In this document: in pieces, positions 3,466 to 46,643 of the stretch | Layout: each line of letters begins with the position of its first letter | Position numbering within the stretch: the stretch's first letter is position 1 | NCBI GenBank assembly: GCA_002794035.1 | Contig: PCXQ01000004.1 | Location: 17,842 to 81,841, forward strand | From: Candidatus Yanofskybacteria bacterium CG10_big_fil_rev_8_21_14_0_10_36_16 | GTDB lineage: Bacteria; Patescibacteriota; Minisyncoccia; 2-02-FULL-40-12; IGHO2-01-FULL-4-A | DNA length: 64,000 nt | Reading direction: 5' to 3' | Made by a program: the position numbers and the translations under genes | Notes under the pieces: generated by a model | Databases searched by the model: none | Seen by the model: only the letters and a program-made list of their open reading frames with translations | Told to the model about the DNA's origin: nothing

Positions 3466-4281
3466 TTATTCAGGTAATTTGCAACCTGAAATTTCACTTA
3501 ATTTTTTGAACGATTGAACTCCTGGATCAAATCTATATATTTCACTACCATCTTCCCTCTCTTGTATCCATGTAGGTGTGTGTTCTATGTTTTTGGCCAC
3601 GCATCTTTCAACTTCCGGGTGGGGATTTCTAGGATCGCATTCTATTTCTTTTATATATTGAAAAGCATCTCCGAATAACCCCCGTTGTTTTAAGCAGAAG
3701 GAACATGTTATAGAGCCATACATCAAGAATCCTTTCTCATCAAGACATTGAGCAAATTCGTTGTATTTATCTCCTGGGCCTACAGATGAATGAACCCCCC
3801 ATGTTAAGAGTGCTAATAAAATAGCTACAACAACAGCAGACACAAAGTGGTTCTTTTTAAATTCTGTCCCGCTTCCCTTCCATGCGGTAATTGCTATCAA
3901 TGTCATGAGTATTTTGGATCCTTCACAAAAGACGCATATGCTTTTAATAACCGTGAGCTCTATAATTGTTAGGTAAAGTGATGGACCAAGGAAGGCGATG
4001 GTTATAAATGCTATCTTTTTTAGGGTTTTTTTGTCATATTTAAAAATTGATGTGAAAAATACTGCTATAAAGTAAAAGATTCCCAACATAGAAACAGGTA
4101 TGCCTGCGACCTCAGAATATTCACTTTTGTTAACTATGTCGCATGATAAACCCTTCCCAAGATCACAAAAAGACCCCTCTTCTTCAGAGAAGTGTAAGCT
4201 GACTAAGTATCCCATTATAAGAATACCCAGTATGGATAAGACGGCTAATGCTATTTGTTTTTTTTCGTGTTTTTTAGCCAT
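3466..4281 (-). CDS. Vitamin K epoxide reductase (VKOR) homolog fused to a thioredoxin-like domain (DsbB analog)
   Basis: N-terminal VKOR TM domain with loop Cys pair (FCDLGKGLSCD) and TM CVFC. C-terminal Trx-like domain with CSFC. Confidence 0.7.
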   Translation of the reverse strand: MAKKHEKKQIALAVLSILGILIMGYLVSLHFSEEEGSFCDLGKGLSCDIVNKSEYSEVAGIPVSMLGIFYFIAVFFTSIFKYDKKTLKKIAFITIAFLGPSLYLTIIELTVIKSICVFCEGSKILMTLIAITAWKGSGTEFKKNHFVSAVVVAILLALLTWGVHSSVGPGDKYNEFAQCLDEKGFLMYGSITCSFCLKQRGLFGDAFQYIKEIECDPRNPHPEVERCVAKNIEHTPTWIQEREDGSEIYRFDPGVQSFKKLSEISGCKLPE

Positions 4282-35275: not shown

Positions 35276-37039
35276 TTATTCTACAATGGCTCTTATTCTC
35301 CTTATACCAGTACCCACCGACTGTTCTTTTTTAATAGTTATACGGCCTATCTCCCCCGTTTGTTCTACATGCGGACCCCCGCAAAGCTCCCGGCTAAATG
35401 GCTTATCCCAGTCACCTACTGTATAGACTTTTACAGTAGATGGATATTTTTCTTTAAAGAAGGACAACGCGCCAAGCTTTACGGCCTCCTCATAAGGCAT
35501 CTCGCGCATTGTAACCAACAAATCATCATCCACTGCCTTGTTAGCAAGATTTTCAATTTCTTTTTTTTCTTCATCTGTTAGCTTGCGGTTAAAATTAAAA
35601 TCAAATCTCAGCCGTTCGGCTGTAATATCAGAACCAGCTTGATGAACTTCTTCGCCTAAAACCTTGCGCAATGCAGCATGCAAAAGGTGAGTAGCCGTAT
35701 GTAATCTTGTAACTTTTTTTAATTCTTCTTCGTTACCAGCTTTGAGTTCCCCTGTATCTAATATAAGTCCATGGCCTCCGAATTTCTTTTCTTGCCCAGC
35801 CTTTGATAATTCTTTATGCTTTTCCATTTCTGCCTCAAAACTTTTGGTATCTAACTCGACCCCTTTTTCTTCAGCAAGCTCTTTGGTAAGTTCAACTGGA
35901 AATCCAAAGGTTGTATATAAGTCAAAAACATCTTTACCAGATATCACATTAGTTCCAGAACTTATTCTCTCAAATTCTTTTATGCCATTGCTTAGTGCCT
36001 TGCTAAATTTATATCTTTCGTTTTCTATTACTTCCAATATTTCGTCCTGTTTTTTTGAGAGTTCAGGATATACACCGACATAAATATCATGAGAAACAAC
36101 ATGCAGTATTCTTTTGTAAATATCATCGGGCAAATCAAGAGATTTAACATATCTTATTGCCCTTCTTAATAGACGTCTCAAAACATATCCTTGTTCTGAG
36201 TTTGACGGCAAAACACCGTCTGAAATCATAAAAATTGCCGCTTTCATGTGATCAGCAATTATTCTTTCTGCTTTTCTATTATTCTCATGATCATACAATT
36301 CTTTTCCCCTAATCTCTGTTATTACCGGCAAAGAAAGGTCTGTTTCATAAACATTGTTTTTTCCTTGAAGCATAACTGCCAAACGCTCAAGACCCATACC
36401 AGTATCTATGCCCTTTATTTCTAAAGGTAAATATTTTTTATGTTCATCACAGAAAAATTCATTAAAGACAATATTCCATATCTCAACACCATCTATATAA
36501 ATCTCCGTTGTGGGTCCGCATGGGCCCTTGCTTCCTGTCGGACCCCAAAAATTATCTTCTTTATCTCCAAAAATTATTTTATCATCAGGCACACCAAATG
36601 ATTTCCATATTTCTAGAGACTCTCTGTCTTCAGGGATATTGTTTTCATGATCACCCTTAAATATAGAAACAACTACTCTTTCTGGTGATATCCCCAAATC
36701 TTTTATCATAAAATCATACCCATATTGTATTGCTTCTTTTTTCCAGTACCCACCGAATGAAAAATTGCCCAACATTTCAAAAAAGGTTGCGTGAGTGTTG
36801 TCTCCAACCTCTTCTATGTCTACTGTCCTCACTGACTTTTGAATAGATGCGGTATTTTTAGAACCAAAGTCTTTAATTGGATCTGCCTCGCCTGTATAGT
36901 ATTTTTTAAACTGTTGCATACCTGCGGTTGTAAAAAGCACCGACGGGTCATCGGGCAAAAGAGAGCTTGATGGCACAACCGCGTGACCTCGCTCTTTAAA
37001 AAAGTTTAGGAATTTTTCACGAATTTCTTGATGTGTCAT
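35276..37039 (-). CDS. alaS: Alanyl-tRNA synthetase (catalytic plus editing domains; C-Ala domain absent)
   Basis: MTHQEIREKFLNFFKERGHAVVPSSSLLP...FTTAGMQQFK...FFEMLGNFSFGGYWK, and editing-site HTATHLLHAAL...CGGPHVEQTG. 587 aa from the ATG at 37039. Confidence 0.85.
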   Translation of the reverse strand: MTHQEIREKFLNFFKERGHAVVPSSSLLPDDPSVLFTTAGMQQFKKYYTGEADPIKDFGSKNTASIQKSVRTVDIEEVGDNTHATFFEMLGNFSFGGYWKKEAIQYGYDFMIKDLGISPERVVVSIFKGDHENNIPEDRESLEIWKSFGVPDDKIIFGDKEDNFWGPTGSKGPCGPTTEIYIDGVEIWNIVFNEFFCDEHKKYLPLEIKGIDTGMGLERLAVMLQGKNNVYETDLSLPVITEIRGKELYDHENNRKAERIIADHMKAAIFMISDGVLPSNSEQGYVLRRLLRRAIRYVKSLDLPDDIYKRILHVVSHDIYVGVYPELSKKQDEILEVIENERYKFSKALSNGIKEFERISSGTNVISGKDVFDLYTTFGFPVELTKELAEEKGVELDTKSFEAEMEKHKELSKAGQEKKFGGHGLILDTGELKAGNEEELKKVTRLHTATHLLHAALRKVLGEEVHQAGSDITAERLRFDFNFNRKLTDEEKKEIENLANKAVDDDLLVTMREMPYEEAVKLGALSFFKEKYPSTVKVYTVGDWDKPFSRELCGGPHVEQTGEIGRITIKKEQSVGTGIRRIRAIVE

Positions 37040-37074
37040 ATCACCATAATAAAATAAAAGCCCCAAAAGGGCAA

Positions 37075-37614
37075 TTATGTATATTCATTTTTTGTAACCA
37101 AAAGAGAAATACTGCAACAATCTAAACAAAGAGAAAACCAGCTTCTTGACCAAACATCACCCTCTGCACTATCAAATTCTTGTGCATATCTATAAACGAT
37201 AATACTTCTGTTTTTACAATTCGGACAATCCGTCTTCCACAAACCTGAATCATCTTCAACAACCTTAACATTTTTAAGACCAATTTCTAGTGTTTCTTTT
37301 TTTCCTATTTCCATTAATTGTTTCATAAAGACGTATTGCCTTGGACTTAGAGGATTTTTTGGATCAAAATTTGTGACAGAATCATTTATAAAACAACAAA
37401 ATGCCTCATATTTACCGGGATAATGACCCGGAGGGTTCCAGCTCCGCTTTAAAGATTTAATTAATCCCAAAACCCGACTATTGCCTTTCTGGTCTTTTTT
37501 AAGTTGATCAATCTTGGAGCTTAATTCTTGAATTAGTTCATTTGTTTTTAAAACAATCTCCTTTGTTCCAGTTTCTATGTTTTCAATTTTTCTTGCAAGT
37601 TCATTTCCCTGCAC
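37075..37614 (-). CDS. Hypothetical Cys-containing protein (179 aa)
   Basis: ORF immediately upstream of alaS. Carries CPNC...CLDCC motifs. Confidence 0.4.
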   Translation of the reverse strand: MQGNELARKIENIETGTKEIVLKTNELIQELSSKIDQLKKDQKGNSRVLGLIKSLKRSWNPPGHYPGKYEAFCCFINDSVTNFDPKNPLSPRQYVFMKQLMEIGKKETLEIGLKNVKVVEDDSGLWKTDCPNCKNRSIIVYRYAQEFDSAEGDVWSRSWFSLCLDCCSISLLVTKNEYT

Positions 37615-37733: not shown

Positions 37734-38033
37734 TTAATTCTCTTTAACTTCTCCCCGGTTTAATTTGTGGAATTTACGTTTTTTATTAAGAAGATAAATG
37801 CCAAATGCTATTAGTAAAATGGGCCAGAATGCATCACTAAAAATACCTAGTTCGCGAGCTAAAAAATAAACTCCCAGAATTACAAAAAACCAGCCCCAAA
37901 ATAAACCCTTGCCTCCATGGCAGTAACGACAACCAGAATCCATGCATTTTTGGTGCCAATTTTTTATTTCCTCTTTGTTGTTTTGTTTATTATTTTCCTT
38001 TTCCATAATTAAATAATACATTAATTTTGACAT
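37734..38033 (-). CDS. Small membrane protein with an N-terminal CxxGCxxC motif (99 aa)
   Basis: CMDSGCRYCHGG followed by two TM helices. Confidence 0.35.
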   Translation of the reverse strand: MSKLMYYLIMEKENNKQNNKEEIKNWHQKCMDSGCRYCHGGKGLFWGWFFVILGVYFLARELGIFSDAFWPILLIAFGIYLLNKKRKFHKLNRGEVKEN

Positions 38034-39152: not shown

Positions 39153-39198
39153 GTTTATTCAAAAACTGCCCAATTTTGGACAGTTTTTTATTTTTATA

Positions 39199-39561
39199 TT
39201 ATTTATTAGATTTTTTATCCATCAAATAATATAAGGCAAGCGGAGCAGCCCAGTTAGCCCATCTCTCAAAGAAATCCCATACAGGATCGGGTCCGAAGGG
39301 CCATCTGAGAAGCGCAGTCCATAGCCCCCAAAAGGCCATCCACAAAATTGCAGGGCGCAACGGCTTAACGAGTATTAAGATTGCGAGTGTAATATCCATT
39401 ATACCGACTATCAACAATAAGCTTGTCATCATTGATGGGTCTGTAATTCCAAACGGTTCAAAATACTTAAACCACCCCTCTTTGCCCTGAAGAGCAAATA
39501 CGCCATGGCCTAGAAATTCTCCGAAAAGACCAAGACGCAAAATCCACATAATTTTATTCAT
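39199..39561 (-). CDS. Small polytopic membrane protein (120 aa), hypothetical
   Basis: Three or four hydrophobic helices. Confidence 0.35.
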   Translation of the reverse strand: MNKIMWILRLGLFGEFLGHGVFALQGKEGWFKYFEPFGITDPSMMTSLLLIVGIMDITLAILILVKPLRPAILWMAFWGLWTALLRWPFGPDPVWDFFERWANWAAPLALYYLMDKKSNK

Positions 39562-39704: not shown

Positions 39705-40457
39705 TTAAAGAAATCCATTTACAAAATTTTGAAATCCATCAAACTGGAAGAAGAATCCTTGTAATTGTGCAAATACGTTTGAAAATTGGTCAGTAATCAA
39801 AAGGAATCCTAAGAAAATTAAGAATACGCCAGCAATAATATTTATTATTCTCATTATTCTATCCATTTTACTGAAGGTAGTGAATGATTTACCTATTAAA
39901 AGAGCGGTCAGAAGGAAAGGGATAGCAAGACCCGCTGAAAATAAGGCTAGCAAATAAATCCCCTGAAAAACTTGCCCTTGCGTTGAAGCAATCAAAAGCA
40001 CCGAACCAAGAATGGGACCTACGCAGGGTGACCAACCGAGGGCAAAAAGTGAACCAAGAAAAAAAGAATTGCCTTTTGTGGGCTTTTGGAAAAATACCGG
40101 TATATAAATCTTTTTTTCTGCATTTAAAAAGTTAACTTTAAGAACTCCCATTATAAACAATCCGAAAAGCACAATAAGAATACCACCTATGCGTTGAAGC
40201 CATATCTTAACTCCTATGATTTGTCCCAAAAAAGAAAAAGCTACACCGAAAAGAATAAATACAATAGAAAATCCAAGGACATAAAAAAACGCATTGCTAA
40301 ATATTTTCCACCTAACAAGTTTTAATTTTGCAGGATCACTCAACTCCTCTTGTGGAACTCCTGAAATCAAACCCAAAAACGCCGGCACTAAAGGCAATGT
40401 GCATGGAGCAAAAAAAGTAAAGAAACCTGCAACAAAAGATGAAAAGGCTAATCCCAT
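39705..40457 (-). CDS. ccdA: Cytochrome c-type biogenesis protein CcdA (DsbD family thiol-disulfide transporter)
   Basis: FFAPCTLPLVPAFLG and GWSPCVGPILGS, the two conserved TM cysteines of CcdA. Confidence 0.75.
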   Translation of the reverse strand: MGLAFSSFVAGFFTFFAPCTLPLVPAFLGLISGVPQEELSDPAKLKLVRWKIFSNAFFYVLGFSIVFILFGVAFSFLGQIIGVKIWLQRIGGILIVLFGLFIMGVLKVNFLNAEKKIYIPVFFQKPTKGNSFFLGSLFALGWSPCVGPILGSVLLIASTQGQVFQGIYLLALFSAGLAIPFLLTALLIGKSFTTFSKMDRIMRIINIIAGVFLIFLGFLLITDQFSNVFAQLQGFFFQFDGFQNFVNGFL

Positions 40458-40526
40458 AAAACAATATTGTGCCGGTAATTATTAATTATTAATTAAGAAA
40501 TAAACGATAATTACACGGCCCCTAAT

Positions 40527-41108
40527 TTAATTGATAATTTCCCCAATTCTCTCCACTAACTCTTCTTCTGCTAGTGGTCCCAGTTTTAAGCTTTTAATAA
40601 TTCCGTCTTTATCTATAAAAATAGAATAAGGCATTGAGAAACCGTTATATCTTTTGTAAATGTCATCTCCATCATCCCAAGCTACAATATATTTGTTCGT
40701 AACACCAAGATCATCCGTATATTGTTTGGCGGTTTTAAGACCTTCGTTTCTGTTTATGGCAATTGTTACATAAGCATCGCCGAATTGTTCCTGAATCCTG
40801 CCCATTAAGAGCATTTCGTCCAGACAAAATGGACACCATGAAGCCCAAAAATTAACAAACACTGGTTTACTACCTTTAAAATCAGACAGCTTAACTGTAT
40901 TACCTTGATAGTCCACAACTTCAAAATCAGGCGCCAAATCCCCAACACGAGTGCCGACTTTTAAATTATTGCCGGCATCTTGTTCGCTTTGCGAATTTGC
41001 TTGGTTATTATCCGAATTTAATTCAACTTTATTACCCCTATCCATAGTTAAAAAATAACCCAGAATAATAACAGCTAAAATAATAATTGAGGATAATATT
41101 TTTTTCAT
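40527..41108 (-). CDS. TlpA/ResA-family extracytoplasmic thioredoxin-like oxidoreductase
   Basis: N-terminal signal/TM. VFVNFWASWCPFC active site. Confidence 0.8.
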   Translation of the reverse strand: MKKILSSIIILAVIILGYFLTMDRGNKVELNSDNNQANSQSEQDAGNNLKVGTRVGDLAPDFEVVDYQGNTVKLSDFKGSKPVFVNFWASWCPFCLDEMLLMGRIQEQFGDAYVTIAINRNEGLKTAKQYTDDLGVTNKYIVAWDDGDDIYKRYNGFSMPYSIFIDKDGIIKSLKLGPLAEEELVERIGEIIN

Positions 41109-41114
41109 AATATT

Positions 41115-42194
41115 TTACTGAAATAATTCTGTTTTAGGGTGGGCTACTAGCCAGCTAAACCAAAACCCTCCTATGAAAGGCAGTTCATCGCTATTTGCAA
41201 TTATGCTGATTTCGTCTTTGCCACTTTTTGTAATAATAATTTCCTTATTAGCAAAAGAATCGTTAGTTGTTCCTACCTTTAATGATTCAACATTGTAAGC
41301 CTTAAACTGCCCATTTATTTCTATGCCAACAACATATGCTTTTGGGTGTAGTTGATCATCGTTAAAATCAGCACCGAAACCCACCTGGCTACTTGTATAA
41401 TAATCTCCGTAAGGATCACGTCCATATGTTCTAAAATGTCCCGTATCTCTAGATAGAACCCTAGTATCTGGGTGTAACTTTTTCCAATCACCATATTTTA
41501 CGGTGTCAGAACGGATTATTTTAAGTTTTATTCCAGTATGAGGGCCAACAATTGCCTCTCCCAACACCTGCGACCAAAGAGACTCATTGTCTTCGCCTTC
41601 TGACCTGTTGTACATGACTAAATTTGACTTCCAAAGGCGTCCTGATGTGCCAAAGTCAAAGTGTTTGCCGCCAACCACAGGATCAAAAACTATACCGGTA
41701 AAACAAAGCGGGCAATAAGTAACTAACGCAGGTTTACCACCCACGGTGTCATTAACTATTTCGTGCCATACTAAAATTTGGTAAGGATAAAAACGGCAAT
41801 CATCGCCATTGCATAATCCTTGCCCTACATCTTCATCAGTCAAATAATCAACTTCATTCGGTGATATGAATTTAGGATTATCAATTGAAGGTATGCCATC
41901 TTTGGAAGGACCTCCGGATAATATCTCGTCTAAAGGCACAGAGTGCTTAACTCCATCTGTGACAAATATTTGTCTTGAGGTTTGAAAATCTGAACCATTC
42001 CTAAGAGTATTTTGCGCATCAGAACCCCCTCCTGCGTTTTTGTTGTTTTGTTCTATAAACTCTTCAAGTGGAACAGAATCACCTTTTGGCAGCTTTCTTT
42101 GACCAAAATAAAATCTATCCAAGGCAAGCCAACCGACCCCAAGTGTAAGAATTGCTAATACTAAAATTTTTATTTTAAAACTATTATTCATCAC
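41115..42194 (-). CDS. DUF3179-family protein (secreted or membrane-anchored)
   Basis: GIPSIDNPKF...HEIVNDTVGGKPALVTYCPLCFTG...SGRLWKSNLVMYNRS...LWSQV.GEA matches the DUF3179 pattern. Confidence 0.6.
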   Translation of the reverse strand: MMNNSFKIKILVLAILTLGVGWLALDRFYFGQRKLPKGDSVPLEEFIEQNNKNAGGGSDAQNTLRNGSDFQTSRQIFVTDGVKHSVPLDEILSGGPSKDGIPSIDNPKFISPNEVDYLTDEDVGQGLCNGDDCRFYPYQILVWHEIVNDTVGGKPALVTYCPLCFTGIVFDPVVGGKHFDFGTSGRLWKSNLVMYNRSEGEDNESLWSQVLGEAIVGPHTGIKLKIIRSDTVKYGDWKKLHPDTRVLSRDTGHFRTYGRDPYGDYYTSSQVGFGADFNDDQLHPKAYVVGIEINGQFKAYNVESLKVGTTNDSFANKEIIITKSGKDEISIIANSDELPFIGGFWFSWLVAHPKTELFQ

Positions 42195-42197
42195 TTA

Positions 42198-42461
42198 TTA
42201 TTCATTATTGATTCCAGCCCATTCAACTAGCGCTTCATAGGGCGCAGCTCCGCAAATTGCCTGTTTGGTTTCTGTATTAAAGAAAAAAGGTACACCAGCA
42301 CAAACACCATCAGCATATTCGGCCATTTTTTTGGCATTTTCCTCATTATGCCAAACCTCATATTTCTCAACTTTTATACCATGTTCTTTTTCAAGACGCT
42401 CAACAAAAGGAACCATTTTGTGGCACCACCCGCATTCAAGGCCATAAAATTGTAAAAGCAT
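42198..42461 (-). CDS. Small thioredoxin/glutaredoxin-like protein (CGWC active site)
   Basis: 87 aa with LLQFYGLECGWCHKMVP, a Trx-fold pattern. Confidence 0.65.
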   Translation of the reverse strand: MLLQFYGLECGWCHKMVPFVERLEKEHGIKVEKYEVWHNEENAKKMAEYADGVCAGVPFFFNTETKQAICGAAPYEALVEWAGINNE

Positions 42462-42556
42462 ATAAATTTATTCAAGAACAAAACGACTGGACAACAAGTA
42501 TATTTTTCAGTTGCCAGTATCCAACTCATTTCACTCGTATGCTCTTGAATAACCGA

Positions 42557-42922
42557 TTAAATTATTTTCAATATCCTTAATATTTTTTTCGCAATTGGAT
42601 TTTTCTTGTTAATACAGTAGCAAATCGTTCTGCCATACCTGCATTTTTCCACAATACACCTCGCTTCAAGCATTGACAGCTGATGAGATACTGCTGATAA
42701 AGTAACGTCTGTTTCTGATTGTATTTCCGACACGCACATTTCCTTTGTTTTTGACAAGGTTTGAATAATTTTTAACCGTGTTGGATCTGAAAGTAAATAA
42801 AAAACCTCAGGTGCTTGAAGCACCTTTGGATTATATGTTTCTATCCCCTGCTTTCTTGTTGTTTGCATTAAAATAAAAATAACAACACTTGAACATTTGT
42901 TCAAGTGTTCACTTATCCACAA
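42557..42922 (-). CDS. ArsR/SmtB-family HTH transcriptional regulator
   Basis: FYLLSDPTRLKIIQTL...MCVSEI...LSAVSHQLSML..ARCIV...YGRTICYCI. Confidence 0.7.
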   Translation of the reverse strand: MWISEHLNKCSSVVIFILMQTTRKQGIETYNPKVLQAPEVFYLLSDPTRLKIIQTLSKTKEMCVSEIQSETDVTLSAVSHQLSMLEARCIVEKCRYGRTICYCINKKNPIAKKILRILKII

Positions 42923-44092: not shown

Positions 44093-46096
44093 TTATTTAC
44101 CGAGCATTTTGCTAATAGCTGTTAATGCTCCTGAAAAATCTAGTGAACCAGATGCAATTAGTTTTTGAACAGATGCTGCAATCTGTCCTTCGCCCTCTCT
44201 GGTCACTTCATTTAAGGCTCTGCCTCTTTCTTTTATTCTAGCGGCATCAGCAAGGCCTCTTTGCTTCATTACTTCAATTCTTTTCCCCTCTGTTAGAGCT
44301 TCCTGCTCAAGAACAGGAATTTCCCGCTTGGCACTAACCTCCCTTGTAAAAAGGGCTAGGTACTCTTGGGCATTGGGATCTTTCTTGAAATCAATTTCGG
44401 AAATTTCCAAATAAATAATAGAAGCAAATCTTCCCTCAACTGCTTTATCAAGCGCTTTTTTAATGTGCTTTTTAAATGCGCTGATATTATTCATTATCCT
44501 ATCAATATTTGTTTTAAGCGCGATATCCACGAGGGTACTATTTAATCTGGGATGTATTGTATCCCTAATGAGCTCTTCTTCACTGTCTGAAATTGCAATC
44601 ATCTTGGCAGCATTTTTGCCTTCAATAATGATTCCGATTTCAACAGAAATTTCTAAATAAAACCTATCTTTTGTTGTGATCCTTACTGGATCAAAATTGT
44701 AAATAGGCTGCCTTTCTTTAGTCCACTTTAAATTAATTGGGGTAGTATCAACTATTTGAACTTGATTAGCAACGGGGTGTATAAAATGGAATCCAACCGA
44801 TAAAACCTTTTCTGTGATTCCTCGCTTATACTCAGGTTTTCCTGTTTGGGAGTCTGTTTTTTTCTTAATTACGGGTACTCGCATTTCTTTACCGTCAATC
44901 TGTACCCATTCTTCAATATAGTCACTGCCATCTGCGGCAGGAGACTCTCCAATGTTTGAGATTACAACACCTACTTGGCCTTCTTTAATATATGTGGCCC
45001 AAGTTTTTTCTAACTCAATGGCATAGGGGTGCAAATAGTAGCCTCCAGGTTCCACAAGCTGTGGCTGGATACCCATTTCTCCACCCATCTTTTGCCAAGT
45101 TACTAGATCTTGAAAGTTGTCATGAGTTTTATAGTCGCCAACAGGTTCCGGCTTTAAAGCGATAACTCTATCTTCTTCATCTGGGATTTCACTTCCTATT
45201 TTAACTGTTACGATACCAATCTGAGACCAATCAACCTCTTCTTCATGATGATGTCCTAGCTTTGGTCTTTTAACTATTCCGATTTCAGTTTTTTCAAATA
45301 GTTCAATTTTGAAAAGTTTTTCATTAATTAATTTACGGCCATGCGACAATGTTTCAATTTGGGGGCCTGTTTCTCCACCGCCCTCCAGAAATGCTTCAGC
45401 GTTCGTAAAGTGATTACACTCTACATGAATACGCGTCATAACCCCACGCCTAAGGTGTATTCCGTCTTTCGCAATAACGACACCTCTTTTATCTTCAGGG
45501 ATTTCCGGCATATCGCGGAATTCAACCTTGCCAAAGACATTGATAAGGAATGGGAAATTCCATCCGGGCCTTAAAATCTGCGCCTGAGTTCCCTGGCGCC
45601 GGAATTTAATCCTCAGCCACCTCGGCCACGGCTTCCACCTACAACAATAATGATATTTTGTTTTCCAAACCTCCTGTTTCATGTCTTCATTGTAAAACCA
45701 GGGAAATCCAATTGAAAAATCTATGCGAAGTTTTTTGAGTGGTTCGCTATAGTTATATAGATCTCTTTTTATTGTAGGAATGACTTTAAAATTCGGCCAC
45801 TCAATACGCGTAGCAATGTTTCTGCCTTCAGGCAGTTTTGGAGAAAGCGGAAAATGCCACTCCATAATGCCGTATTTATCGGCGGGAACCTTAACAGCGC
45901 TTGAAATCACAAGGTATGTTAACCCAAGCAATAAACCGCCCCCAAAAACAACCCATTTGGATATCATTTCCCAGAATTCTTCCTGAGACATTCCTGAAGC
46001 ATCAAGGCTTTTGCCCCAAGGCCATACGACATAATAAATAAACAGTCCCAAGACTAACAATATCAGTATTTGCAACAATTCATTTTTATTTTGCAT
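44093..46096 (-). CDS. SPFH/Band-7 (flotillin/YqiK-like) membrane protein with long N-terminal region
   Basis: AGGAGG SD sits 6 nt upstream of the ATG at 46096. N-terminal TM helices. C-terminal E/A/R-rich coiled coil (EALTEGKRIEVMKQRGLADAARIKERGRAL). Confidence 0.4.
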   Translation of the reverse strand: MQNKNELLQILILLVLGLFIYYVVWPWGKSLDASGMSQEEFWEMISKWVVFGGGLLLGLTYLVISSAVKVPADKYGIMEWHFPLSPKLPEGRNIATRIEWPNFKVIPTIKRDLYNYSEPLKKLRIDFSIGFPWFYNEDMKQEVWKTKYHYCCRWKPWPRWLRIKFRRQGTQAQILRPGWNFPFLINVFGKVEFRDMPEIPEDKRGVVIAKDGIHLRRGVMTRIHVECNHFTNAEAFLEGGGETGPQIETLSHGRKLINEKLFKIELFEKTEIGIVKRPKLGHHHEEEVDWSQIGIVTVKIGSEIPDEEDRVIALKPEPVGDYKTHDNFQDLVTWQKMGGEMGIQPQLVEPGGYYLHPYAIELEKTWATYIKEGQVGVVISNIGESPAADGSDYIEEWVQIDGKEMRVPVIKKKTDSQTGKPEYKRGITEKVLSVGFHFIHPVANQVQIVDTTPINLKWTKERQPIYNFDPVRITTKDRFYLEISVEIGIIIEGKNAAKMIAISDSEEELIRDTIHPRLNSTLVDIALKTNIDRIMNNISAFKKHIKKALDKAVEGRFASIIYLEISEIDFKKDPNAQEYLALFTREVSAKREIPVLEQEALTEGKRIEVMKQRGLADAARIKERGRALNEVTREGEGQIAASVQKLIASGSLDFSGALTAISKMLGK

Positions 46097-46229
46097 TTCT
46101 AACCTCCTATTGGCATATTTTAAAGAACAAAATGCGCTGACTATATTATACATAAAAATAAGTCCTCAGTCAATAACAAAACAACCCCACTGTGGTGGGC
46201 TGTTTGTGCGAAGTTTTGTATTGTTTTAT

Positions 46230-46643
46230 TTATTTTTCAGGATTCCCTTCTTTGTTTTCAAAATCCAGTGCACAAGAGTTTATGCAATATCTTTTGCCTG
46301 TGAGGTTGGGGCCATCGTCAAAAACATGGCCTAAATGACCTCTGCATTTTTTACATTTTACCTCGATCCTTTTCATTCCTAAACTATTATCCTCCACTAA
46401 TTCAACCTTGCCGTTGTCTATCGCCTCGTAAAAACTTGGCCATCCTGATCCGGAATCAAATTTTGTATCAGACGAGAAAAGATCCTCTCCACAGGCAGCA
46501 CATTTATACATCCCTTTTTCTTTATTTATATTATATTTTCCTGAAAAAGGAGTTTCGGTACCGCTCTCCCTCATAATCTTGTACTGCTCAGGAGTAAGCT
46601 TATCTCTCCAATATTCATCTGATTTTATATTTTCATTAGTCAT
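46230..46643 (-). CDS. msrB: Peptide-methionine (R)-S-oxide reductase MsrB
   Basis: CAACGEDLFSSDTKFDSGSGWPSF...CKKCRGHLGHVFDDGP...RYCINS. Confidence 0.9.
   Translation of the reverse strand: MTNENIKSDEYWRDKLTPEQYKIMRESGTETPFSGKYNINKEKGMYKCAACGEDLFSSDTKFDSGSGWPSFYEAIDNGKVELVEDNSLGMKRIEVKCKKCRGHLGHVFDDGPNLTGKRYCINSCALDFENKEGNPEK

What the first reader, a model, noticed from the sequence alone, without database searches (positions are those of the whole stretch)
39705..42922. Five-gene thiol-disulfide operon: ArsR, Trx-like, DUF3179, TlpA, CcdA
All five genes are on the minus strand with short gaps. They are an ArsR/SmtB regulator, a CGWC thioredoxin-like protein, a DUF3179 protein with a conserved YCPLC motif, a TlpA/ResA extracytoplasmic reductase (WCPFC) and the CcdA membrane electron shuttle. 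TlpA-CcdA normally feeds reducing power to cytochrome c maturation, but no ccm/ccs genes or cytochromes are in sight. DUF3179 has no known function. Its placement between a cytoplasmic Trx and the periplasmic TlpA suggests it is the substrate or another redox component of this pathway.
Basis: partly seen in the sequence, partly recalled or inferred. Interest (0 to 1): 0.55.

Follow-up and report, generated by a model that had tools for sequence, protein, structure and literature searches.

The report
DUF3179 joins CcdA–TlpA reducing pathway
A small regulated operon in a candidate-phyla-radiation bacterium couples a membrane electron shuttle (CcdA) and a surface thioredoxin (TlpA-like) to DUF3179, a large uncharacterised protein family, and comparative evidence shows that DUF3179 is the real partner of this pathway in microbes that have no cytochromes to mature.

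Summary
Five minus-strand genes (ArsR/SmtB, a truncated CGWC thioredoxin, DUF3179, a WCPFC TlpA/ResA-like protein, CcdA) lie 3–95 bp apart with no terminator between them. A perfect 12-2-12 SmtB/ArsR-type operator sits in front, and a terminator-like hairpin lies one ORF downstream.

- In 80 species-representative loci, DUF3179 lies beside TlpA and/or CcdA in 34 of 40 CPR-like and 8 of 9 DPANN-like loci, in different gene orders.
- Natural fusions exist in three architectures (TlpA–DUF3179, DUF3179–TlpA, DsbD_TM–DUF3179). Of the 150 top family representatives, 24 carry a fused Redoxin domain.
- CPLC is near-universal. In one Dehalococcoidia locus its first Cys is a UGA codon, matching the published UxxC/T selenoprotein form.
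- No cytochrome c or ccs/ccm signature is present.
- The confident AlphaFold model has no PDB fold neighbour.

Best reading: Trx → CcdA → TlpA → DUF3179, with DUF3179 a surface-anchored Cys/Sec-dependent terminal reductase of unknown substrate. This parallels the CcdA–Etrx–MsrAB2 and ScsB–TlpA–peroxiredoxin systems. A thiophilic-metal role is the main rival. It is a new variant of a known kind and apparently unreported.

The parts
42884..42909 (.). Perfect 12-2-12 inverted repeat AACACTTGAACA-AA-TGTTCAAGTGTT, 15 nt upstream of the arsR ATG. Probable ArsR/SmtB operator. It could also act as a weak terminator for the upstream PGI gene.
   Evidence: it is the only perfect copy in the window. It closely matches published SmtB/ArsR 12-2-12 operators such as AATACCTGAACA-GA-TGTTCAAGTATT (PMC8790569). 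Similar N2-spaced sites lie at the arsR start in L002, L011, L012 and L016.
42557..42868 (-). arsR: ArsR/SmtB-family winged-helix repressor (103 aa from the ATG at 42868; the ORF lister extends it to a TTG at 42922). It has two conserved Cys (alpha3 'CV' and wing 'CY') and no canonical alpha3 CxC or alpha5 metal site.
   Evidence: searches (HTH_5 9e-12; HTH_metalloreg 72.3 bits, above the cutoff of 55), and the alignment of 24 operon-linked ArsRs.
42198..42461 (-). Small N-terminally truncated thioredoxin-like protein (87 aa, CGWC, no export signal). Presumed cytoplasmic electron donor to CcdA.
   Evidence: Thioredoxin 1.2e-4, just under the gathering score; only thioredoxins hit in the PDB, best 1.2e-6, aligned to Trx residues about 25-102. 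The equivalent slot in 21 of 40 CPR-like loci holds a 78-aa glutaredoxin-like protein.
41115..42194 (-). DUF3179 protein (359 aa; the database protein starts one codon later, at the ATG at 42191). It has an N-terminal membrane anchor (residues about 4-30), a variable linker, and a beta-rich conserved domain with invariant C161-P-L-C164 and W-H144-E-x-x-N-D.
   Evidence: PF11376, 6e-77; 100% identical to a Candidatus Yanofskybacteria protein; conservation; AF2 pLDDT 90, pTM 0.86; no PDB fold neighbour.
40527..41108 (-). TlpA/ResA/Etrx-like membrane-anchored extracytoplasmic thioredoxin-fold reductase (193 aa, WCPFC).
   Evidence: AhpC-TSA 9e-20, Redoxin 3e-18; ResA subfamily model 9e-25 but below its cutoff. 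ResA 4nmu 1.6e-17; pneumococcal Etrx1/2 structures 4hqs, 2yp6 and 4hqz; TlpA 1jfu; PilB N-domain.
39705..40457 (-). CcdA: six-TM thiol-disulfide electron transporter, with both signature cysteines (FAPCTLP and WSPCVGP).
   Evidence: searches (DsbD_TM 57.8 bits, above 27.1; solved CcdA 5vkv, 5.8e-26), sequence.
39199..39561 (-). 120-aa small membrane protein, possibly a co-transcribed sixth gene (143-bp AT-rich gap, no terminator before it). The DoxX label is weak.
   Evidence: DoxX 5.5e-4, below the gathering score; hhalign shows no similarity to the DoxX genes that accompany DUF3179 elsewhere. One search gives the sequence.
39161..39188 (-). Terminator-like element (A-run, hairpin CTGTCCA-AAAT-TGGGCAG, T-run) between convergent genes. 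Probable 3' end of the transcription unit.
   Evidence: Read directly from the sequence. The scan did not list it (7-bp stem including one G-U pair).

Best explanation
The locus is an autoregulated operon for an extracytoplasmic reducing pathway that has nothing to do with cytochrome c.

Proposed electron path: NAD(P)H-derived electrons pass from the small cytoplasmic thioredoxin (CGWC) to the two cysteines of CcdA in the membrane. They then pass to the membrane-anchored TlpA-like thioredoxin (WCPFC) on the outer face, and from there to DUF3179, which is also anchored on the outer face.

Proposed role of DUF3179: it is the terminal client, most likely an enzyme. Its first CPLC cysteine (C161, selenocysteine in some lineages) attacks an oxidised substrate and becomes oxidised, probably as a C161-C164 disulfide. 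TlpA then reduces it again. The substrate is unknown. A cell-surface oxidant or oxidised sulfur compound (peroxide, sulfoxide or disulfide) is the working guess, by analogy with CcdA-Etrx-MsrAB2 and ScsB-TlpA-PprX.

Proposed regulation: the ArsR-family repressor, with two conserved cysteines instead of a metal site, binds the 12-2-12 operator and is probably released by thiol oxidation or a thiophilic ligand.

Shown: gene content, synteny, fusions, the Sec/Cys position, export signals, the operator, and the absence of cytochrome c machinery.
Inferred: direction of electron flow, catalytic role, substrate class and the regulator's signal.
For: Operon anatomy.

Conserved synteny in 80 GTDB species-representative loci:
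- CPR-like loci: TlpA 33/40, CcdA 27/40, ArsR 25/40, Grx-like 21/40, TrxB-like 13/40.
- DPANN-like loci: TlpA 8/9, CcdA 7/9, in a different gene order.
- The same trio occurs in a spirochaete and an actinomycete locus.

Rosetta-stone fusions confirmed by Pfam:
- L036 and L043, TlpA-DUF3179; L053, DUF3179-TlpA; L032, DsbD_TM-DUF3179.
- Of the 150 best 50%-identity representatives, 24 carry Redoxin/AhpC-TSA and 4 carry DsbD_TM.
- All 23 fusions detected by phmmer keep both W-CxxC and CPLC.

Active site:
- CPLC is conserved across bacteria and archaea.
- L067 has TGA at the first Cys.
- The literature lists DUF3179 as a UxxC/T selenoprotein (PMC9312934 and PMC13188914).
- CPLT variants exist, which suggests the first residue is the essential one.

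Extracytoplasmic location:
- 74 of 77 full-length proteins have an N-terminal hydrophobic segment, and 9 have a lipobox-like match.
- Some representatives are fused to SLH, fn3 or CarboxypepD_reg modules.

Sustained electron supply encoded in cis in other CPR loci: GDH, TrxB, FMN reductase, Grx.

No cytochrome c machinery: no CxxCH cytochromes or WWD proteins nearby, and electron transport chains are absent in Patescibacteria and DPANN (PMC7507113).

Known analogous pathways: PMC3914529 and PMC3322552.
Against: - No biochemical data exist for any DUF3179 protein.
- The CPLC lies in a predicted beta-hairpin turn (a CPxC 'knuckle'). That geometry is more typical of metal sites than of thioredoxin-type redox centres.
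- The regulator belongs to a metalloregulator family.
- Sec also replaces Cys in some metal-binding proteins listed in the same selenoprotein tables.
- 21 of 24 thaumarchaeal loci lack TlpA and CcdA. They pair DUF3179 with an unrelated Cys-Cys membrane protein instead, so the TlpA/CcdA coupling is not universal.
- Co-transcription in the window is inferred from spacing, not measured.
- No model coordinates were available to measure the C161-C164-H144 geometry.
Confidence: 0.6

Rival explanations
1. DUF3179 is a thiophilic-metal (for example Cu, Hg or Zn) binding or transfer protein on the cell surface. It would be analogous to Sco or MerP, with its CxxC (plus H144) as ligands kept reduced by TlpA/CcdA. 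The ArsR/SmtB repressor would then act as a metal sensor.
For: - The ArsR/SmtB family regulator has a canonical 12-2-12 operator.
- The CPxC motif lies at a beta-hairpin turn, with an invariant His predicted across the hairpin (the register is my inference).
- Selenoprotein tables include metal-binding UxxC proteins.
- A weak MerC-like membrane protein, with its own CPLC, lies in four CPR loci.
- Thaumarchaeal DUF3179 is followed by a membrane protein with a vicinal CC pair, reminiscent of MerT/MerF (the resemblance is from memory).
- A cupredoxin lies nearby in L080.
- TlpA is known to reduce Sco and CoxB (from memory).
Against: - The operon-linked ArsRs lack both canonical metal sites.
- No metal transporter or ATPase recurs in the neighbourhoods.
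- Frequent covalent fusion to TlpA in both orders, and whole electron-supply chains in cis, fit a client that is oxidised on every turnover better than one needing occasional reduction.
- CPLT variants keep only one ligand.
- About 35 further near-invariant residues suggest a substrate pocket.
Confidence: 0.2
2. DUF3179 is not a terminal enzyme. It would be an electron hub or disulfide isomerase-like carrier, playing the part of the DsbD alpha domain, that passes electrons from TlpA to other envelope proteins such as the DsbA-like proteins encoded nearby.
For: - The CcdA + TlpA + DUF3179 set mimics the beta-gamma-alpha modules of DsbD (knowledge of DsbD is from memory).
- DsbA/Thioredoxin_4 genes occur in 11 of 40 CPR-like loci.
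- A DsbD_TM-DUF3179 fusion exists.
Against: - The domain is large (about 280 aa) and unusually conserved (40-45% identity between bacteria and archaea), which is more than expected for a simple carrier.
- A Sec form exists.
- The window itself encodes no further candidate acceptor.
Confidence: 0.12
3. TlpA-CcdA here serve cytochrome c maturation or another unrelated client encoded elsewhere, and DUF3179 is an accidental neighbour or independently transcribed.
For: - TlpA/ResA/CcmG and CcdA are classically tied to cytochrome c maturation.
- Only 64 kb of the genome was available, so cytochromes elsewhere cannot be excluded directly.
Against: - Synteny is conserved across phyla, with shuffled gene order and domain fusions.
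- No ccs/ccm or CxxCH genes occur in the window or the 80 loci.
- Electron transport chains are generally absent in Patescibacteria and DPANN.
- There are no internal terminators.
Confidence: 0.03

Closest known systems
CcdA1/2-Etrx1/2-MsrAB2 surface reducing system of Streptococcus pneumoniae (PMC3914529); similar msrAB operons in S. gordonii and Fusobacterium nucleatum
   Same: A cytochrome-independent operon that couples CcdA and a membrane- or lipid-anchored TlpA-like thioredoxin to a surface-exposed terminal reductase, fed by cytoplasmic Trx. The window's TlpA-like protein hits the Etrx structures 4hqs, 2yp6 and 4hqz.
   Different: The terminal client is DUF3179, which is unrelated in sequence and predicted fold to MsrA or MsrB. 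The operon is controlled by an ArsR-family repressor and carries its own small cytoplasmic Trx. The host is a CPR bacterium.
ScsB/DsbD -> TlpA -> PprX cell-envelope peroxiredoxin pathway (Caulobacter; PMC3322552)
   Same: A DsbD-family membrane transporter passes electrons through TlpA to a thiol-dependent detoxifying enzyme in the envelope. That client was also identified through gene context.
   Different: The transporter here is the minimal six-TM CcdA. The client is not a peroxiredoxin fold. No activity is known.
PilB of Neisseria (TlpA-like Trx domain fused to MsrA-MsrB, reduced by DsbD)
   Same: The architecture [anchor]-[TlpA-like Trx]-[catalytic reductase] matches the natural TlpA-DUF3179 fusions. 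The PilB N-domain structures are among the hits of the window's TlpA.
   Different: In the window the two parts are separate genes. The catalytic module belongs to a different, uncharacterised family.
System II cytochrome c maturation (ResA/CcdA with ResB/ResC, i.e. CcsBA)
   Same: It uses CcdA plus a ResA/TlpA-like thioredoxin with a WCxxC motif.
   Different: No ResB/ResC (WWD motif) or apocytochromes are present in the window or in the related loci. The ResA and TlpA equivalog models are not reached.
TlpA-ScoI/CoxB copper-site reduction (Bradyrhizobium; from memory)
   Same: TlpA keeps the cysteines of an extracytoplasmic CxxxC/CxxC protein reduced.
   Different: Sco is itself a thioredoxin fold and serves cytochrome oxidase, which these organisms lack. 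DUF3179 shows no similarity to Sco.

Membership tests
DUF3179 (PF11376) | Significant match to the Pfam model over the conserved domain | tested here: met
   259.3 bits against a gathering score of 27, E 6e-77.
DUF3179 (PF11376) | CxxC motif at the position that is UxxC/T in the selenoprotein forms | tested here: met
   C161-P-L-C164 is invariant in 70 CPR homologues. L067 has TGA at the first Cys. The literature lists UxxC/T.
CcdA / DsbD_TM thiol-disulfide transporter | Pfam DsbD_TM match above threshold and similarity to solved CcdA | tested here: met
   57.8 bits against 27.1; 5vkv at 5.8e-26.
CcdA / DsbD_TM thiol-disulfide transporter | Two essential cysteines in the proline-containing TM motifs | tested here: met
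   FAPCTLP and WSPCVGP are seen in the translation. That these are the functional pair is established knowledge (from memory).
TlpA/ResA/CcmG-type extracytoplasmic thioredoxins | Redoxin/AhpC-TSA thioredoxin fold with W-CxxC and an N-terminal membrane anchor | tested here: met
   AhpC-TSA 9e-20, Redoxin 3e-18. WCPFC and the hydrophobic N-terminus MKKILSSIIILAVIILGYFL are in the translation. ResA 4nmu at 1.6e-17.
TlpA/ResA/CcmG-type extracytoplasmic thioredoxins | Equivalog-level identity with ResA or TlpA (that is, a cytochrome c or Sco-specific reductase) | tested here: not met
   ResA model 87.6 bits against a cutoff of 170. TlpA equivalog 47.7 against 230.
ArsR/SmtB metalloregulators | Winged-helix HTH_5 / HTH_metalloreg domain | tested here: met
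   NF033788 72.3 bits against a cutoff of 55; HTH_5 9e-12.
ArsR/SmtB metalloregulators | 12-2-12 inverted-repeat operator near the regulated promoter | tested here: met
   AACACTTGAACA-AA-TGTTCAAGTGTT at 42884-42909. Compare the published operators in PMC8790569.
ArsR/SmtB metalloregulators | Canonical metal-sensing site (alpha3 CxC / alpha3N, or alpha5 Asp/His/His/Glu) | tested here: not met
   The alignment of 24 operon-linked ArsRs conserves only one alpha3 Cys ('CV') and one wing Cys ('CY'). Site definitions are from memory.
Thioredoxin | Pfam Thioredoxin match above threshold and a full-length fold with WCGPC | tested here: inconclusive
   22.5 bits against 23.5. PDB hits are all thioredoxins (1.2e-6), but the alignment starts at Trx residue 25 and the motif is CGWC.
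System I/II cytochrome c maturation | CcsBA/ResBC or CcmF (WWD motif) and CxxCH apocytochromes in the locus | tested here: not met
   No WWD motif and no plausible cytochrome in the window or in 1,127 neighbour genes. The whole genome was not available.
CcdA-dependent extracytoplasmic reductase systems (Etrx-Msr type) | Electron transfer Trx -> CcdA -> surface Trx -> client | not testable with these tools
   Supported only by context, fusions and topology. It needs biochemistry.

The most novel reading that the evidence does not exclude
DUF3179 is a previously unrecognised class of cell-surface Cys/Sec-dependent reductase with a fold that has no solved relative. It would be the principal reason why cytochrome-less CPR bacteria and DPANN archaea retain the CcdA-TlpA pathway. 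It would serve as a dedicated extracellular antioxidant or repair enzyme (peroxide, sulfoxide or disulfide reductase) for ultra-small, catalase-poor cells. In ammonia-oxidising archaea it would be coupled instead to a different, novel Cys-Cys membrane partner.
Probability: 0.4. Interest if true: 0.75.

Novelty: new variant of a known kind. Interest (0 to 1): 0.6.

Why it matters
DUF3179 is a very large orphan family: 11,142 representatives at 50% identity with E ≤ 1e-3. It is strikingly conserved between bacteria and archaea and is abundant in CPR, DPANN and ammonia-oxidising archaea. The only published annotation is that some members are selenoproteins.

Placing it as the client of the CcdA–TlpA pathway gives it a concrete, testable biochemical context: an electron donor, an active-site residue, a topology and a regulator. 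It also explains why organisms without cytochromes keep 'cytochrome c biogenesis' genes, which are routinely mis-annotated in these genomes. If DUF3179 proves to be an extracellular antioxidant enzyme, that bears on how obligately fermentative ultra-small microbes tolerate oxic habitats.

Tried and rejected
- **Fold assignment.** Foldseek against the PDB found nothing at E ≤ 1e-3 (best E 9.5e-3, TM about 0.1). A profile search against PDB sequences found nothing. A permissive Pfam scan of the domain returned only DUF3179.
- **Viral library.** It gave one real structural match, to an uncharacterised Indivirus protein. This says nothing about function.
- **SECIS test.** Folding the RNA downstream of the L067 UGA gave z = 0.25, so the result is inconclusive. 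The Sec call rests on the codon position, the intact downstream frame and the literature.
- **Thaumarchaeal membrane partner as a cryptic CcdA or MerC relative.** hhalign probabilities were 1% or lower, so this was rejected.
- **Window's downstream 120-aa ORF as a match to the DoxX genes that accompany DUF3179 elsewhere.** There was no phmmer hit and no hhalign similarity, so the DoxX label stays weak.
- **PGI as part of the operon.** No PGI homologue occurs in any related locus, and the operator separates it from arsR.
- **Accessory genes elsewhere in the window (TrxB, Grx, DsbA, DUF3105, GDH).** None were found.
- **Palindrome as a mere terminator of PGI.** This was not fully excluded. It is disfavoured by the match to published operators and by equivalent sites in front of arsR where the upstream gene is divergent.
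- **Residue distances.** Model coordinates were not exposed, so distances could not be measured.

Full report
**1. Observation**

The window is low-GC DNA, about 35%. Its DUF3179 protein is 100% identical to a protein of Candidatus Yanofskybacteria (CG10_big_fil_rev_8), a member of the Patescibacteria/CPR.

Family assignments hold:
- ArsR/SmtB: NCBIfam HTH_metalloreg, 72.3 bits against a cutoff of 55.
- DUF3179: PF11376, 6e-77.
- TlpA/ResA-like thioredoxin-fold protein with WCPFC: AhpC-TSA 9e-20, Redoxin 3e-18.
- CcdA: DsbD_TM, 57.8 bits against 27.1.
- The 87-aa CGWC protein falls just below the Pfam thioredoxin threshold. It matches only thioredoxins among solved structures (best 1.2e-6) and lacks the first 20 or so residues of the fold.

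The TlpA-like protein's best solved relatives are ResA (4nmu, 1.6e-17) and the pneumococcal surface thioredoxins Etrx1/2 (4hqs, 2yp6, 4hqz). It also hits TlpA and the PilB N-domain (PDB codes verified in PMC3914529). CcdA matches the solved CcdA 5vkv at 5.8e-26. Both signature cysteines are visible (FAPCTLP, WSPCVGP).

**2. Transcription unit**

No terminator-like site falls in the four intergenic gaps. The 'terminator' flagged at 42884-42909 is a perfect 12-2-12 palindrome, AACACTTGAACA-AA-TGTTCAAGTGTT. It lies between the stop of the upstream phosphoglucose/phosphomannose isomerase gene and an in-frame ATG at 42868. That ATG gives a 103-aa ArsR, comparable in length to its homologues.

The palindrome is nearly the same as published SmtB/ArsR operators, for example AATACCTGAACA-GA-TGTTCAAGTATT (PMC8790569). 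It is the only perfect copy in the window.

Similar N2-spaced sites sit at the arsR start in L002, L011, L012 and L016. The background is 0.066 sites per 220 bp. In L002, L012 and L016 the upstream gene is divergent, which excludes a terminator reading at those loci.

Downstream of ccdA there is a 143-bp AT-rich gap and then a 120-aa membrane-protein ORF. After that comes a hairpin with a T-run at 39161-39188, between convergent genes.

I therefore read the unit as operator-arsR-trx-DUF3179-tlpA-ccdA, possibly with the small membrane protein as a sixth gene. PGI is not part of it, because no PGI homologue occurs in any related locus.

**3. Is the linkage real?**

A pattern scan of GTDB species representatives returned 80 loci that encode DUF3179. 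They come from CPR bacteria, Thaumarchaeota, DPANN archaea, Spirochaetota, Dehalococcoidia, Actinomycetes and Nitrospinales. Some automated record titles look unreliable, so I grouped the loci by title together with similarity and context.

I searched the neighbours with the window's own proteins and also clustered them without labels.

| Lineage group | Loci | TlpA-like | CcdA | TlpA or CcdA | Other recurrent genes |
|---|---|---|---|---|---|
| CPR-like | 40 | 33 | 27 | 34 | ArsR 25, Grx-like (78 aa) 21, TrxB-like 13, DsbA-like 11 |
| DPANN-like | 9 | 8 | 7 | 8 | – |
| Thaumarchaeota | 24 | 3 | 1 | 3 | Cys-Cys membrane protein 21, DoxX 10 |
| Other | 7 | 3 | 2 | 3 | – |

- Several of the CPR-like exceptions (for example L012, L015, L028, L040) are contigs that end close to the DUF3179 gene.
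- Gene order differs between lineages. In CPR it is ArsR-(Grx/Trx)-DUF3179-...-TlpA-CcdA. In DPANN and one actinomycete it is TlpA-CcdA-DUF3179. In a spirochaete it is DUF3179-TlpA-CcdA. This argues for selection on the association rather than inherited synteny.
- Other recurrent CPR inserts are DUF3105, DoxX, glutamate dehydrogenase and an NADPH-dependent FMN reductase. Some loci therefore encode the whole electron supply chain in cis.

As a rough expectation (my estimate), a 12-kb window of a 1-Mb genome with one to three TlpA-like genes would contain one by chance only about 1-4% of the time.

**4. Fusions**

Pfam confirms four natural fusion proteins in the loci:
- TlpA(Redoxin)-DUF3179 in L036 and L043.
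- The reverse order, DUF3179-TlpA, in L053.
- DsbD_TM-DUF3179 in L032 (30.5 bits against 27.1).

L037 looks like a TlpA-DUF3179 fusion interrupted by a frameshift.

An exhaustive HMM search found 11,142 representatives at 50% identity with E ≤ 1e-3. Among the best 150:
- 24 carry a Redoxin/AhpC-TSA domain and 4 carry DsbD_TM.
- Others carry SLH, fn3 or CarboxypepD_reg modules, which are typical of surface proteins.
- All 23 TlpA fusions detected by phmmer keep both the W-CxxC motif (mostly WCPFC, as in the window) and CPLC. All but one truncated sequence (P0182) begin with a membrane anchor or signal/lipoprotein-like hydrophobic segment.

**5. The DUF3179 protein**

Homologues share an N-terminal hydrophobic anchor, present in 74 of 77 full-length proteins. 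After it come a variable linker and a domain of about 280 residues that is 40-45% identical between bacteria and archaea. Conserved motifs in that domain:
- C161-P-L-C164 (invariant in the CPR homologues, ≥90% in the 150 diverse representatives)
- GGPxKDGIP
- W-H144-E-x-x-N-D
- FGxSG
- DPYxxY
- FWFxW

CPLC is present in all loci where the motif region was retrieved (one search printed no line for L032 and L061; the L032 protein sequence does contain CPLC). The exception is L067 (Dehalococcoidia), where the first Cys codon is TGA and the frame continues intact through all conserved motifs. This matches the published listing of DUF3179 as a UxxC/T selenoprotein family (PMC9312934 and PMC13188914). 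A few representatives have CPLT, so the first position is the essential one.

AlphaFold2 gives a confident, mostly beta model (pLDDT 90, pTM 0.86). CPLC lies in the turn between strands 154-161 and 166-171. If strands 146-151 and 154-161 form a hairpin, H144 would face C161. That register is my inference, because no coordinates were available.

Foldseek finds no PDB neighbour (no hit at E ≤ 1e-3). The only convincing structural match is an uncharacterised Indivirus protein in the viral library.

**6. Not cytochrome c maturation**

The only CxxCH strings in the window are the Trx active site (CGWCH) and a LiaF-like 99-aa protein. No CcsA/CcmF WWD motif occurs in the window or in the 1,127 neighbour genes. 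Patescibacteria and DPANN generally lack electron transport chains (PMC7507113). The whole genome could not be inspected.

**7. Mechanism**

The best-supported model is a cytochrome-independent extracytoplasmic reducing pathway: cytoplasmic Trx (or Grx in most relatives) → CcdA → TlpA-like thioredoxin → DUF3179.

DUF3179 is most likely a terminal thiol/selenol-dependent reductase that TlpA recycles on each turnover. Four observations support this:
- It is fused to TlpA in the same way that MsrA/B is fused to a TlpA-like domain in PilB.
- A Cys/Sec pair marks the nucleophile.
- Full electron-supply chains are encoded in cis.
- Many residues beyond the CxxC are invariant.

The closest characterised systems are CcdA-Etrx-MsrAB2 (PMC3914529) and ScsB-TlpA-PprX (PMC3322552). 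The substrate is unknown.

The ArsR carries two conserved cysteines (alpha3 and wing) and lacks canonical metal sites. A thiol-based signal is therefore plausible but unproven.

**8. Rivals**

- *Thiophilic-metal role.* This is the main rival. For it: the CPxC knuckle geometry, the regulator family, metal-binding selenoproteins in the same tables, a weak MerC-like neighbour that has its own CPLC, and the thaumarchaeal Cys-Cys membrane partner. Against it: the ArsR site analysis, the absence of metal transporters in the neighbourhoods, the CPLT variants, and the fusion pattern.
- *Carrier or isomerase role.* An electron hub like the DsbD alpha domain is possible but less likely.
- *Coincidental adjacency or cytochrome maturation.* This is effectively excluded.

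**9. Novelty**

Full-text searches for DUF3179, PF11376 and IPR021516 returned four distinct papers: two selenoprotein reviews, one gene-list mention (Idiomarina) and an unrelated macroalgal genomics preprint. None links the family to CcdA or TlpA.

The pathway type is known. The client, its fold and its prevalence in CPR and DPANN are not. I therefore rate this a new variant of a known kind, with moderate-to-good interest.

Noticed in passing
L039-L080 thaumarchaeal loci, e.g. L055:7041-7520 (+): In 21 of 24 thaumarchaeal loci DUF3179 is followed immediately by a conserved membrane protein of about 160 aa with invariant LGC and PLGCCGWW motifs. It has no Pfam family and no detectable relation to CcdA or to the MerC-like cluster. 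DoxX is often divergent upstream. It may be an alternative membrane partner for DUF3179 in ammonia-oxidising archaea.
   Followed up: partly
L067:3570-4412 (+), TGA at 3822: A Dehalococcoidia DUF3179 has an in-frame TGA exactly at the first Cys of CPLC, and the frame is intact downstream, so it is a likely selenoprotein form. A simple fold test of the downstream RNA was not distinguishable from shuffles (z = 0.25).
   Followed up: partly
L020:5516-5896, L025:5833-6240, L027:10093-10629, L033:8627-8848: A small membrane protein with a weak MerC match (24.8 bits against 27.6) carries its own CPLC motif inside the first TM helix (GVCPLCW). It occurs in four CPR DUF3179 loci.
   Followed up: partly
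CPR loci L001, L003, L007, L008, L010, L013, L022: DUF3105, another uncharacterised family, recurs inside the DUF3179-TlpA-CcdA operons, often next to a DsbA/Thioredoxin_4 gene. A DSP-type phosphatase (HCx5R) recurs in six loci.
   Followed up: no
BFVD entry A0A1V0SD44 (Indivirus ILV1): An uncharacterised giant-virus protein is the only convincing structural neighbour of the DUF3179 model (E 2.9e-11, TM 0.70 on the target, 12% identity).
   Followed up: no
window 46230-46643 (-): A cytoplasmic-type MsrB (SelR, 6.7e-52) lies about 3 kb upstream of the operon on the same strand. It has no export signal and is separated from the operon by two unrelated genes.
   Followed up: no
window 44093-46153 (-): A 686-aa protein with N-terminal TM segments has no NCBIfam match. 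Its function is unknown.
   Followed up: no
window 35276-37066 (-): The alanyl-tRNA synthetase-like ORF is only 596 aa with a TTG start, which is shorter than typical bacterial AlaRS (from memory).
   Followed up: no
window 37734-38033 (-) and 37075-37614 (-): A LiaF-TM-like 99-aa membrane protein has a CRYCH motif. Next to it is a 179-aa protein with two CxxC pairs (CPNC, CLDC). Both lie just downstream of the operon region and were not examined.
   Followed up: no
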